A DNA stretch of 64,000 nucleotides from a phage, in sequence record PX994957.1; one strand, written 5' to 3'. Within the stretch, counting starts at the first letter, position 1. Each line of letters begins with the position of its first letter. A model generated the notes under the pieces. That model ran no database searches. It saw only the letters and a program-made list of their open reading frames with translations, and had not been told where the DNA came from. Both the position numbers and the translations under genes were made by a program. This document shows, piece after piece, positions 23,338-24,789 of the stretch.

Positions 23338-23502
23338 TTACTCTTCTTTTTCTTTAGATTCCTCTTTCTTCTTTTTAGGAATCTGTTCAGGACCTTTATT
23401 TACTACAGCGCCCGACGTTGTTCCAGTAGAGATATTTTCAGGATTACCACCTGAATCTCCAGCGACCATATCTTCTTTGATAAATTCTTTATATGTTTTC
23501 AT
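23338..23502 (-). CDS. 54-aa Lys/Glu-rich protein
   Basis: ATG 23502 inside repeat copy A (TAATATG junction); MKTYKEFIKEDMVAGDSGGNPEN; absent from ORF track. Confidence 0.45.
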   Translation of the reverse strand: MKTYKEFIKEDMVAGDSGGNPENISTGTTSGAVVNKGPEQIPKKKKEESKEKEE

Positions 23503-23546
23503 ATTAACCTCTATTCATAAAAGCATTAAAAATTTGGTCATCAATA
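23500..23546. repeat. 47-bp direct repeat, copy A
   Basis: catattaacctctattcataaaagcattaaaaatttggtcatcaatag; 2 mismatches to copy B. Confidence 0.8.
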
Positions 23547-23860
23547 GATGGAATAGCAACCTTTTCGGCATCATTTAGCAAATCATTAATTTCATCAGAT
23601 AGCATAACACATGTGCCTTTATTTCCTGTAATTGTTACTGCGCAATTACGAACGTTTTCTTTATCAAATTTTAGGTTAATATTTTCGTAGTGAAAATCCT
23701 TTAATGCCGAATATATCTTTAAAATGAAATTGTCTTTTACTACAATAAACCCAACCTCACTATTAAAACGTGGTTCATGGAAACTGTAATAAACCTTTTC
23801 ATCTATAAAATCGTATGAAATTTTTTCCATTTTTAAATATGAAAATTCAGAACTATACAT
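23504..23860 (-). CDS. hypothetical protein (61.x-type) bracketed by 47-bp direct repeats
   Basis: 118 aa; ATG 23860 with SD AAAGGTTAAT; C-terminus SIDDQIFNAFMNRG shared with next gene. Confidence 0.6.
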   Translation of the reverse strand: MYSSEFSYLKMEKISYDFIDEKVYYSFHEPRFNSEVGFIVVKDNFILKIYSALKDFHYENINLKFDKENVRNCAVTITGNKGTCVMLSDEINDLLNDAEKVAIPSIDDQIFNAFMNRG

Positions 23861-23904
23861 ATTAACCTTTATTCATAAAAGCATTAAAAATTTGATCATC
23901 AATA
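23858..23904. repeat. 47-bp direct repeat, copy B
   Basis: catattaacctttattcataaaagcattaaaaatttgatcatcaatag; 358 bp from copy A. Confidence 0.8.
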
Positions 23905-24494
23905 GAAACATTTACTTTAGACTGTTTTTCTGATGGTAATTCATATCCACATATTACAATTTTGTGATCAATATCAAAATACACAGAAGCAATATGATTA
24001 ATGATGTTTTCAGTAAAGTCTAAATCAACATCAATATCTTTTTGACCACAGCCCAAAGGATAAATAATGCGAGTAATTCGATTATCTTTAACAAATATTC
24101 CACCGACATACTCTGTGCTGCGTTTAAAGTTTACACGTTTCCTAAATGAAAAATATTCAGGTTCTTTATGAGCCCGACTCATAGGACACAATGAGTAGCT
24201 AGAATAAGAGATGTCAAATCCTACACCTTCAATATGAGCCAACGCGTCATGATTAAACCAATTATAATCATATGCCAAATCCATTATATTGTAATATGTG
24301 AAAGGCACCGGATTAACATCATGTGTTGTACCTTTAAAATCTGCCCAGGCAACGATTTCGTTATCTTTAACAATTACAAAAATTGTGTCAATAAGATATC
24401 CACGGTTATTTTCATCAGGCGTTATATTATAACATTGTGCATCAGGAAATTTACCGTATTTAAACGGTGGATTTTTGTGCATATAATAAATCAT
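23862..24494 (-). CDS. hypothetical protein (61.2-type)
   Basis: 210 aa from ATG 24494 with SD AGGTGAATAAT; C-terminus SIDDQIFNAFMNKG. Confidence 0.6.
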   Translation of the reverse strand: MIYYMHKNPPFKYGKFPDAQCYNITPDENNRGYLIDTIFVIVKDNEIVAWADFKGTTHDVNPVPFTYYNIMDLAYDYNWFNHDALAHIEGVGFDISYSSYSLCPMSRAHKEPEYFSFRKRVNFKRSTEYVGGIFVKDNRITRIIYPLGCGQKDIDVDLDFTENIINHIASVYFDIDHKIVICGYELPSEKQSKVNVSIDDQIFNAFMNKG

Positions 24495-24495
24495 A

Positions 24496-24789
24496 TTATT
24501 CACCTGTGATTTCGGTTACGATATTTTTGTTATTAAAGTTTTTATCGCAATACAGAACATAATTATACTGCATTACACCACCAAACTTAAGTTGTTTTTG
24601 CACTTCAGCTTTCATTTTAGGACGATCGCGCTCAACAATATTCATAATATCCGCTTCAATTTGAGTTTCAACTTCAGTCTGATCTGCAGTCATAGACCAT
24701 TCACACAAGTCTTTATCATATCCTGCCATAGCAGGCTGAGCAGCACAAGAAGCCAAAGTAAAAATTGTAGCAAAAATAAATTTTTTCAT
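24496..24789 (-). CDS. sp: Sp (spackle) periplasmic protein
   Basis: 97 aa, equal to T4 Sp; signal peptide MKKFIFATIFTLASCAAQPAMA; SD GAGGAGATTATC. Confidence 0.7.
   Translation of the reverse strand: MKKFIFATIFTLASCAAQPAMAGYDKDLCEWSMTADQTEVETQIEADIMNIVERDRPKMKAEVQKQLKFGGVMQYNYVLYCDKNFNNKNIVTEITGE

What the first reader, a model, noticed from the sequence alone, without database searches (positions are those of the whole stretch)
23500..23904. 47-bp near-perfect direct repeat brackets a whole gene cassette downstream of gene 61
Copies at 23500-23546 and 23858-23904 differ at 2 positions and lie 358 bp apart, exactly one 118-aa gene. Each copy encodes the last 14 codons of an ORF (SIDDQIFNAFMN R/K G), the stop, and the TAATATG junction with the next start, yet the two ORFs differ upstream of the repeat. 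This is the footprint expected for cassette insertion, deletion or amplification by recombination between short gene-boundary homologies.
Basis: seen in the sequence. Interest (0 to 1): 0.55.

Follow-up and report, generated by a model that had tools for sequence, protein, structure and literature searches.

The report
Shared gene tail enables cassette swapping
Two neighbouring T4-type phage genes (the anti-DarT factor adfA/61.2 and a short 118-aa relative) end in the same 49-nt coding tail plus ribosome-binding junction, and related phages gain or lose the short gene as an exact 358-bp unit at this repeat; this is a tidy example of known short-homology gene shuffling in phages, not a new kind of element.

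Summary
The repeat is real: 49 nt, 47/49 identical, 358 nt apart, and none is expected by chance. On the coding (minus) strand each copy holds the last 14 codons (SIDDQIFNAFMN[K/R]G), the stop, a Shine-Dalgarno sequence and the next gene's ATG. The upstream gene is adfA (gp61.2, anti-DarT factor A). The bracketed gene is ORF118 (RB32ORF033c), a real gene with dN/dS of 0.19-0.33.

The peptide tail is invariant in three very diverged gene types across several T-even genera, so it is a family hallmark and not an insertion scar. Its synonymous sites are free between genera but nearly identical within this genome (P about 0.006). The 61.1-proximal copy is identical whether adfA or ORF118 precedes it.

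Relatives show all four states: neither gene, ORF118 only (T2), adfA only (T4), or both. The sp-to-61.1 intervals are 12, 370, 627/638 and 985/993 nt, always differing by exactly 358. Gaprivervirus shows a matching clean 361-nt indel. No tandem multi-copy case exists in about 470 records.

Verdict: the cassette gain/loss reading is supported and the amplification reading is not. The repeat is the substrate of the recombination, not its product. This is a new variant of known T4 short-homology shuffling, of moderate interest.

The parts
23858..23906 (-). Repeat copy at the end of adfA: last 14 codons (SIDDQIFNAFMNKG), stop TAA, one spacer T, and the ATG of ORF118. Its Shine-Dalgarno sequence is the weakened form AAAGGT.
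23500..23548 (-). Repeat copy at the end of ORF118: last 14 codons (SIDDQIFNAFMNRG), stop, T, and the ATG of 61.1, with Shine-Dalgarno sequence AGAGGT. It is identical 49/49 to the single copy of T4 (behind adfA) and to that of T2 (behind ORF118).
23504..23860 (-). ORF118 (RB32ORF033c; phrog_4122), a 118-aa short relative of AdfA. With 1 nt of spacer it forms the 358-nt variable unit.
23862..24494 (-). adfA (gene 61.2, anti-DarT factor A), 210 aa counted from the ATG in the sp/adfA junction TAATATG. This is the window-type allele MIYYMHKNPPFK...
23338..23502 (-). Gene 61.1 (54 aa), whose Shine-Dalgarno sequence and start codon lie inside the proximal repeat copy.
24496..24789 (-). sp (spackle), the upstream anchor of the variable interval. 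In phages without adfA its stop is followed directly by the ~14-nt repeat tail TTAGAGGTTA(A/G)TATG.
23549..23906 (-). One phasing of the 358-nt unit (ORF118 body plus one repeat copy) that is absent from T4-type genomes. The exact breakpoint cannot be placed within the repeat.

Best explanation
The 49-nt repeat is the common 3' end of two very diverged members of one small phage gene family: adfA/61.2 and the single-lobe ORF118. It has two parts. The first 42 nt encode an invariant 14-residue C-terminal peptide, predicted to be a helix. The last ~14 nt (AGAGGT TAA T ATG) hold the stop codon and the Shine-Dalgarno sequence and start codon of whatever gene follows.

Because both genes end in the same string, the phage's recombination machinery can pair the two copies, or pair one copy with the bare 14-nt junction behind sp. 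Unequal exchange then adds or removes exactly one unit, the ORF118 body plus one junction (358 nt). Every product keeps all reading frames, stops and ribosome-binding sites intact, so the events leave no scar. This yields the four natural states seen in Tequatrovirus. An adfA-only x ORF118-only exchange at the junction gives 'both' and 'neither' as reciprocal products.

The same exchanges, or gene conversion, keep the two copies in one genome almost identical at the nucleotide level while the gene bodies have diverged beyond easy recognition.

Shown: the repeat, its coding content, the conserved peptide, the unit-exact four-state polymorphism, the position-tracking of the repeat copy, and the excess synonymous identity.

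Inferred: that recombination at the repeat, rather than some other process, produced the indels; that the copies are homogenised by conversion; and that ORF118, like adfA, acts in counter-defence.
For: (1) Repeat and content.

(2) Family hallmark. The peptide [SAD][IV]DDQIFNAFM[NK][RK][GD]* followed by (T/A)ATG ends three gene types: adfA (208-216 aa), ORF118-type (117-125 aa) and C-type (122-168 aa). It occurs in Tequatrovirus, RB69-like phages, Gaprivervirus and other ~170-kb T4-like genomes, always at this locus and once or twice per genome.

(3) Protein-level, not nucleotide-level, constraint between lineages. Synonymous sites vary: 3-5 codons between genera and 7/13 in L062. The codon-usage null expects 5.4/13 differing codons, with P(<=1) = 0.006. 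Within Tequatrovirus genomes the two copies differ at 0-2 synonymous codons.

(4) Position-tracking. The 61.1-proximal copy is 49/49 identical in T4 (adfA body), T2 and the window (ORF118 body). The haplotype GAC-GAT occurs in three contexts: the adfA end in an adfA-only genome (P8), the adfA end in genomes with both genes (L037/L038/KIT03/UFV10), and the ORF118 end (Sf21).

(5) Unit-exact polymorphism. Intervals are 12, 370, 627, 638, 985 and 993 nt. The window vs T4 alignment shows one clean 358-nt gap in 95-100% identical flanks. Genomes with both genes nest inside an adfA sub-allele clade shared with adfA-only genomes (10-13 vs ~31 differences per 580 nt). Estimated counts are about 158 records with both genes, 141 with ORF118 only and 165-176 with adfA only.

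(6) Second genus. VR25 vs L033 shows a single clean 361-nt gap bounded by the tail.

(7) Mechanistic precedent. T4 makes amplifications and deletions at 6-10-bp microhomologies in the adjacent dmd-tifA genes (PMC9391042).

(8) No rival signal. The repeat has no promoter, terminator or significant RNA structure.

(9) ORF118 is a real gene: dN/dS is 0.19-0.33, and orthologs at 41-49% identity keep the tail.
Against: No recombination event was observed directly. The natural states could have arisen once each and then spread by ordinary homologous exchange in the flanks, so the number of independent events at the repeat is unknown.

The internal copy in genomes with both genes is not the simple product of an adfA-only x ORF118-only exchange. 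It carries AAAGGT or AGAGAT instead of AGAGGT, so extra mutations must be assumed.

The sp-proximal junction of the states lacking adfA (TAA-TTAGAGG...) cannot be derived from an adfA-containing state by a simple microhomology deletion.

Homology of the gene bodies is weak. Tail-less tests give p = 0.004 and hhalign P = 0.004. Pfam finds no hit without the tail. The models have pLDDT of only 60 and 70, and Foldseek TM-scores are about 0.35-0.45. So 'one diverged family' is likely but not proven, and the C-type may share only the tail.

In Gaprivervirus the two copies can differ at up to 9/49 nt, so homogenisation is sporadic.
Confidence: 0.75

Rival explanations
1. The repeat is only a strongly conserved functional C-terminus, for example a helix needed for folding or for binding a common partner. 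The two copies are alike purely through purifying selection, the repeat plays no part in the gene gain and loss, and its position at the indel boundaries is incidental.
For: The peptide is invariant in all three gene types and in all genera examined, including bodies only 41% identical. It is predicted as a terminal helix in both models. The last codons overlap a Shine-Dalgarno sequence, which adds nucleotide constraint.
Against: Synonymous sites are free between lineages, yet within this genome only 1 of 13 codons differs (null P = 0.006). The indel boundaries fall inside the repeat in three Tequatrovirus backgrounds and in Gaprivervirus. The repeat copy tracks its position rather than the gene body.
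Confidence: 0.12
2. ORF118 is a recent tandem duplication of the 3' half of adfA, made in this lineage. Its body then diverged very fast while the tail was retained.
For: The unit length (358 nt) equals the distance from mid-adfA to its end. There is weak collinear similarity of ORF118 to adfA residues 110-166. Pfam places ORF118 on AdfA profile positions 113-211.
Against: ORF118-type genes exist on their own next to sp in T2/RB14 and in a distant lineage (L062). They also pair with a different partner (the C-type) in Gaprivervirus, at 41-49% identity to the window's copy. So the gene predates the genera. Body identity to adfA is about 24% with saturated synonymous sites, while the body is under purifying selection, not rapid divergence.
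Confidence: 0.05
3. The repeat is a nucleotide-level regulatory element conserved for that function: a middle/early promoter, a PeSL-type promoter-terminator cassette, or an RNA structure.
For: TGCTTTT followed 12 nt later by TAATAT inside the repeat loosely resembles a T4 MotA box plus -10 element (seen in the sequence; comparison from memory). A weak hairpin can pair the first 6 nt with the Shine-Dalgarno region.
Against: The MotA-like string is not conserved in other genera (TGCCTTT, TGCATTT). No sigma-70-type promoter on the coding strand and no terminator were found in the repeat. Folding z-scores are -0.13 and +1.97. 42 of the 49 nt are coding.
Confidence: 0.03

Closest known systems
[quoted passage not shown] 2010, PMC2839356; Comeau et al. 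2014, PMC4122927)
   Same: It is a short conserved motif repeated at gene boundaries in a variable region. Indels between close relatives are bounded by the motif. Its 3' end carries the stop of the upstream gene and the Shine-Dalgarno sequence and start of the downstream gene.
   Different: PeSLs are intergenic and are defined by a strong sigma-70 promoter plus a stem-loop terminator. This repeat has neither. It is 86% coding sequence, is confined to one locus, and is shared because the flanked genes belong to one family.
Microhomology-mediated segmental amplification and deletion in T4, shown experimentally for dmd-tifA (61.4) (Srikant et al. 2022, PMC9391042)
   Same: It lies in the same genomic neighbourhood (the 'anti-TA island'). 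Recombination between short direct repeats leaves one repeat copy at the junction, and the region changes gene content under counter-defence selection.
   Different: Those events used fortuitous 6-10-bp homologies, gave multi-copy tandem arrays, and arose in the laboratory. Here the homology is a 14-49-nt conserved functional module, only 0 or 1 copies are seen in nature, and the products are precise and in frame.
AdfA (gp61.2, Pfam PF23813), anti-DarT factor A of T-even phages (LeRoux et al. 2022, as described in PMC11257639)
   Same: ORF118 shares the 14-residue C-terminus and weak collinear similarity with the C-terminal lobe of AdfA, and it sits directly next to adfA. Pfam scores it above the family threshold.
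   Different: ORF118 has about half the length. Without the tail it gives no Pfam hit. PHROGs keeps it as a separate family. It has Asn where the DarT1-neutralising His (RB69 R164H) aligns. The literature counts T2, which carries only ORF118, as lacking adfA. Its function is untested.
Concerted evolution / gene conversion between tandem paralogs
   Same: Within-genome copies are more alike at synonymous sites than orthologous copies between lineages, and haplotypes are shared between paralogous positions.
   Different: The homogenised tract is only about 49 nt and coincides with the gene end and junction. The rest of the paralogs is not converted.

Membership tests
AdfA family (Pfam PF23813), tested for ORF118 | Score above Pfam's gathering threshold | tested here: met
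   ORF118 scores 34.1 bits against a cut-off of 27, with residues 22-118 on profile positions 113-211. The score depends on the tail: ORF118 without its last 14 residues gives no hit, and the VR25 ortholog matches only through residues 101-119 at 22.5 bits, below the cut-off.
AdfA family (Pfam PF23813), tested for ORF118 | Full two-lobe architecture of about 210 aa | tested here: not met
   ORF118 is 118 aa and covers only the C-terminal half of the profile. The AdfA model has N and C lobes and the ORF118 model has a single lobe.
AdfA family (Pfam PF23813), tested for ORF118 | Body homology independent of the shared tail | tested here: inconclusive
   Tail-less Smith-Waterman shuffle test gives p = 0.004 and hhalign gives P = 0.004 over 54 columns. 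Foldseek top hits are reciprocal within the locus family, but TM-scores are 0.27-0.45 from models with pLDDT 60-70. PHROGs keeps the families separate.
AdfA family (Pfam PF23813), tested for ORF118 | Binds and neutralises DarT1 (His at the RB69 R164H position) | not testable with these tools
   In the BLASTP alignment AdfA 'NIINHIAS' pairs with ORF118 'ENVRNCAV', which places Asn at that position, but the alignment there is weak. Activity needs an experiment.
PeSL modular-shuffling cassette | Sigma-70-type early promoter within the motif | tested here: not met
   No coding-strand promoter match was found in either repeat copy.
PeSL modular-shuffling cassette | Stable stem-loop / terminator within the motif | tested here: not met
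   There are 0 terminator-like sites. RNA folding z-scores are -0.13 and +1.97.
PeSL modular-shuffling cassette | Indels between close relatives bounded by the motif | tested here: met
Microhomology-driven tandem amplification (T4 dmd-tifA type) | Two or more tandem copies of the same unit | tested here: not met
   A synthetic ORF118-ORF118 junction query finds no single-piece match in 473 records. Only 0 or 1 units are seen.
Microhomology-driven tandem amplification (T4 dmd-tifA type) | A unit flanked by short direct repeats, with one copy retained after loss | tested here: met
   T4 and Nami keep a single copy (49 nt and ~14 nt respectively) at the empty site.
Mobile element with target-site duplication (IS element, homing-endonuclease cassette) | A mobility gene (transposase, nuclease or integrase) inside the unit | tested here: not met
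   The unit holds only ORF118. Its Pfam and PHROG hits are AdfA and unknown-function families only.
Concerted evolution of paralogs | Paralogous copies within a genome are more similar than orthologs between lineages at silent sites | tested here: met
   Within Tequatrovirus genomes there are 0-2 synonymous differences, against 3-5 between genera and 7 in L062. The codon-usage null gives P = 0.006. In Gaprivervirus the result is mixed, with 1-4 differences.

The most novel reading that the evidence does not exclude
The 14-residue tail plus stop/Shine-Dalgarno/start junction may be a selected 'adaptor'. On the protein side, it would be a common C-terminal helix that all three otherwise unrecognisably different bodies (adfA, ORF118-type, C-type) need, for instance to dock on a shared partner such as DarT-family toxins or a host factor. 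On the DNA side, it would be a standard connector that lets T-even phages of different genera plug counter-defence gene bodies in and out of the sp-61 'anti-TA island' without a scar. ORF118 would then be an untested inhibitor of a different toxin variant. That would explain why phages said to lack adfA (such as T2) still keep a tail-bearing gene here. It would also explain why the Shine-Dalgarno sequence in front of ORF118 is independently weakened (AAAGG, GAGAT) whenever another family member lies upstream.
Probability: 0.2. Interest if true: 0.65.

Novelty: new variant of a known kind. Interest (0 to 1): 0.4.

Why it matters
The sp-61 interval of T-even phages is a hotspot of counter-defence genes: dmd against RnlA, tifA against ToxN, and adfA against DarT. 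If a conserved coding tail plus junction is what lets whole genes be added or dropped precisely, three things follow.

First, it explains how these phages reshuffle their anti-toxin repertoire without damaging neighbouring genes.

Second, it identifies an unstudied candidate counter-defence gene (ORF118). About 300 sequenced phages carry it, including T2, which current literature treats as lacking adfA.

Third, it gives a simple experimental system for measuring short-homology recombination and gene conversion in T4-type phages: crosses of T4 x T2, PCR across a 12-993-nt interval, and synonymous recoding of one copy.

There is also a practical point for annotation. The Pfam AdfA assignment of the short proteins rests almost entirely on the 14-residue tail.

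Tried and rejected
(1) MotA-box / middle-promoter idea for the repeat (TGCTTTT, 12 nt, TAATAT). Rejected because the string is not conserved in other genera and the scan finds no promoter support.

(2) RNA structure sequestering the Shine-Dalgarno sequence. The folds are not better than shuffles.

(3) PeSL membership. Rejected because the repeat has no promoter and no stem-loop.

(4) A simple microhomology deletion to derive the states lacking adfA from those containing it. The predicted junction (GGTGAATAGAGG...) does not match the observed one (GGTGAATAATTAGAGG...).

(5) Deep homolog collection for better alignments. The word-indexed search gave only 5 ORF118 clusters and 16 AdfA clusters. 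The exhaustive HMMER search gave only 3 ORF118-type clusters in 1.84 billion representatives. The structure models therefore stayed at pLDDT 60-70, and the fold comparison is only suggestive.

(6) PDB searches with the AdfA profile and with the tail peptide found nothing meaningful.

(7) Counting layouts from junction-specific megablast queries. The >=80% coverage counts are inflated because separate pieces are joined, so the layout counts are estimates derived.

(8) IMG/VR and metagenome scans with a degenerate tail pattern gave only 16 and 12 contigs. That was enough for diversity but not for statistics.

(9) The original AdfA paper (LeRoux 2022) is not held. AdfA facts are taken from PMC11257639 and PMC9391042.

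Full report
WHAT IS THERE. The window is a Tequatrovirus (T4-like) genome segment. The closest public record over this region is Escherichia phage AugustSocin, at 99.2%. All genes around the finding are on the minus strand, in the T4 order 41 - dmd - 61.4 - sp - 61.2 - [extra ORF] - 61.1 - 61. The reported repeat is real. The copies lie at 23500-23548 and 23858-23906. They are 49 nt long, 47/49 identical, and spaced 358 nt apart. They are the only two matches in the 64-kb window at up to 3 mismatches, and none is expected in shuffles. Read on the coding strand, each copy is TCT ATT GAT GA(T/C) CAA ATT TTT AAT GCT TTT ATG AAT A(A/G)A GGT TAA T ATG. That is 14 codons (SIDDQIFNAFMN K/R G), a stop, one base, and the start of the next gene. 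The 358 nt equal ORF118 (23504-23860) plus one base.

THE GENES. The 210-aa gene that ends in the upstream copy is gp61.2, which is AdfA, anti-DarT factor A (Pfam PF23813, E = 1.5e-136). AdfA binds and neutralises the DarT1 ADP-ribosyltransferase toxin in its RB69 R164H form. The region has been called an anti-toxin-antitoxin island, since it also holds dmd and tifA (61.4) (PMC11257639; PMC9391042). The bracketed ORF118 is annotated in RB-series phages as RB32ORF033c, 'similar to gp61.2'. It is a real gene. It occurs in 299 phage records at 84-100% nucleotide identity. It has orthologs at 41-49% protein identity in other T4-like lineages. Its body evolves with dN/dS of 0.19-0.33.

ARE THE TWO GENES RELATED BEYOND THE REPEAT? 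Only weakly. BLASTP gives 34% identity over 106 residues with E = 4e-8, and Pfam places ORF118 on AdfA profile positions 113-211. Most of that signal is the tail. Without its last 14 residues ORF118 has no Pfam hit. The VR25 ortholog matches AdfA only through residues 101-119, below threshold. Tail-less tests give p = 0.004 by Smith-Waterman shuffling and P = 0.004 by profile-profile comparison. These rest on three collinear blocks: E..Y.SF, VG.I.VKDN.I..I, and L.F..EN..N..A.

AlphaFold models are of modest confidence: pLDDT 60 for ORF118 and 70 for AdfA. They show the same order of elements, namely a beta-meander, a short helix, a hairpin, and then a terminal helix formed by the tail. In the viral structure library the top neighbours of the ORF118 model are all proteins of this locus: an ORF118-type protein, a truncated AdfA, the VR25 C-type protein and a full AdfA. 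The TM-scores are only 0.35-0.42. PHROGs keeps the three body types as separate families of unknown function that cross-match mainly through the tail. I conclude that ORF118 is probably an old single-lobe relative of the AdfA C-terminal lobe. This is not proven, and the C-type may share only the tail.

THE TAIL IS A FAMILY HALLMARK. I scanned the fetched loci, IMG/VR and the metagenome collection with a degenerate back-translation of the peptide. The motif occurs only at this locus, once or twice per genome. It ends four kinds of ORF. These are T4-type and window-type adfA (208/210 aa), RB69-type adfA (216 aa), ORF118-type genes (117-125 aa), and a third 'C-type' (122-168 aa...KILE.PVYS-tail). 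Gaprivervirus carries the C-type plus an ORF118-type gene, and other ~170-kb phages carry the C-type alone. The peptide is essentially invariant, even where bodies are only 41% identical. The gene that follows the junction differs between lineages: 61.1, a 73-aa gene, or a 65-aa gene. So the repeat was not created by an insertion event. It is a conserved C-terminus fused to a standard stop/Shine-Dalgarno/start junction.

NUCLEOTIDE IDENTITY EXCEEDS PROTEIN CONSTRAINT. Between lineages the synonymous sites of the tail are free. Three to five of about 13 codons differ between genera, and 7 of 13 differ in a distant lineage. This matches the codon-usage expectation of 5.4. Under that null, the probability of at most one differing codon, as seen in the window, is 0.006. 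Within Tequatrovirus genomes the two copies differ at 0-2 synonymous codons.

The copy also tracks its position rather than its gene. The 61.1-proximal copy is identical 49/49 whether the body before it is adfA (T4) or ORF118 (T2, window). The two-site haplotype GAC-GAT appears at the adfA end of an adfA-only genome, at the adfA end of genomes with both genes, and at the ORF118 end in Sf21. Together these are the signatures of crossovers or conversion within the repeat. In Gaprivervirus the two copies differ at 3 to 9 of 49 nt, so homogenisation is sporadic.

CASSETTE VARIABILITY. Across 30 Tequatrovirus loci the distance from the sp stop to the 61.1 start takes discrete values:
- 12 nt: Nami, neither gene, with the sequence sp TAA-TTAGAGGTTAAT-ATG.
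- 370 nt: RB14, SH7 and ZCEC15, ORF118 only. T2 is 386 because of a variant sp end.
- 627 nt: T4, T6 and ESh16, T4-type adfA only.
- 638 nt: PE37, window-type adfA only.
- 985 nt: KIT03, KAW1E185 and L045, T4-type adfA plus ORF118.
- 993-999 nt: the window, UFV10, Sf21 and ESh31.

Thus 370-12 = 985-627 = 993-635 = 358. The same unit is present or absent in three backgrounds. When adfA is upstream the flanking repeat is 49 nt. When sp is upstream it is only the last ~14 nt (TAGAGGTTAATATG).

The window aligned to T4 shows one clean 358-nt gap in flanks that are 95-100% identical. Genomes with both genes and a T4-type adfA differ from adfA-only genomes of the same sub-allele at 10-13 of 580 nt, but from T4 itself at about 31. 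So the indel is polymorphic within an allele clade. From junction-specific searches I estimate about 158 records with both genes, about 141 with ORF118 only and about 165-176 with adfA only. These are estimates, and RefSeq/GenBank duplicates are included. In Gaprivervirus, VR25 and L033 differ by a single clean 361-nt gap, exactly one ORF118-type unit bounded by the tail. No genome has two units in tandem.

MECHANISM. All four combinations of adfA and ORF118 presence and absence exist. By the four-gamete argument, this requires exchange (or recurrent indels) between the two genes, and the only sequence between them is the repeat. An unequal exchange between the tail of an adfA-only genome and the 14-nt junction in front of ORF118 in an ORF118-only genome would give the 'both' and 'neither' states as reciprocal products. 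Exchange between the two copies of a genome with both genes gives the T4 state. Every product keeps frames, stops and ribosome-binding sites.

T4 is known to recombine at 6-10-bp homologies in the adjacent genes, so 14-49 nt is ample. These steps are inferred and were not observed. The states could also spread by ordinary recombination in the flanks after a few founding events. The internal copy needs extra mutations (AAAGGT or AGAGAT instead of AGAGGT). Both of those changes, and the GAGAT in Gaprivervirus, weaken the Shine-Dalgarno sequence in front of ORF118. That may reflect selection on its expression, which is speculation.

COMPARISON WITH KNOWN SYSTEMS. The closest described mechanism is PeSL-mediated modular shuffling in T4-type phages. 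It also places a conserved motif, with stop, Shine-Dalgarno sequence and start, at the edges of variable genes. But PeSLs are defined by a sigma-70 promoter and a stem-loop. This repeat has neither and is mostly coding, so it works like a PeSL without being one. It also resembles the microhomology amplifications of dmd-tifA, but no multi-copy arrays occur. I found no paper describing ORF118, its relation to adfA, or this junction. The current literature counts T2 as lacking adfA.

VERDICT. The repeat is a conserved functional tail and junction that enables the exchange, not a scar of it. I rate this a new variant of a known kind (short-homology modular shuffling in T4-type phages) and of moderate interest. 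It yields a clean testable system and an unstudied candidate counter-defence gene.

Noticed in passing
window ~24300-24540 (minus strand: 3' end of sp and first ~190 nt of adfA): This is a second mosaic module. This ~240-nt patch is only 50-65% identical to T4, while everything around it is 95-100% identical. It corresponds to two adfA N-terminal alleles (MIYYMHKNPPFK... vs MLYQMHKCKDTY...), which are linked to two sp C-termini (NIVTEITGE vs NIIAEVVGE). The window-type N-terminus resembles the RB69-type adfA.
   Followed up: partly
L004 (VR25) vs L033 (IMGVR_UViG_2706795394_000001), sp-61.1 interval: In Gaprivervirus the ORF118-type gene is also present or absent as one clean 361-nt unit bounded by the same tail. 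There its upstream partner is a 'C-type' gene (phrog_8539) that shares only the tail with adfA.
   Followed up: yes
L062 3360-3392 (Logan SRR23924977 contig): A distant T4-like lineage has sp followed by a 125-aa ORF118-type gene with the same peptide tail, but 7 of 13 tail codons are changed synonymously. The stop/Shine-Dalgarno string is tandemly doubled (AGAGGCTAA-AGAGGCTAA-TG), as if the tail end and the ribosome-binding site were two copies of one module.
   Followed up: partly
window 23866-23870 vs 23508-23512; L054 (KAW1E185); L004/L008/L041: Whenever ORF118 follows another family member, the Shine-Dalgarno sequence in front of it is weakened. It reads AAAGG in most Tequatrovirus genomes, and GAGAT in KAW1E185 and in Gaprivervirus. 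The copy in front of the next gene keeps GAGG. This may be tuning of ORF118 translation.
   Followed up: no
L049 (CT01), L052 (G28), L002 (T2): There are signs of decay or sequencing error at the locus. CT01 adfA is split into two ORFs (interval 563 nt). G28 has an extra C inside the tail (GATGACCCAAATT). T2 sp has a frameshifted C-terminus, so its interval is 386 nt rather than 370.
   Followed up: no
L051 (P8), L052 (G28), L053 (Nami), L059 (SH7), between sp and 61.4: Some Tequatrovirus genomes carry an extra goF-like ORF between sp and 61.4 that the window and T4 lack. This is further presence/absence variation in the same island.
   Followed up: no
window 23504-23860 and database annotation: The precomputed Pfam AdfA label on the short 118-aa proteins rests almost wholly on the 14-residue tail. 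Published surveys of adfA presence (for example 'T2 lacks adfA') do not count this gene.
   Followed up: yes
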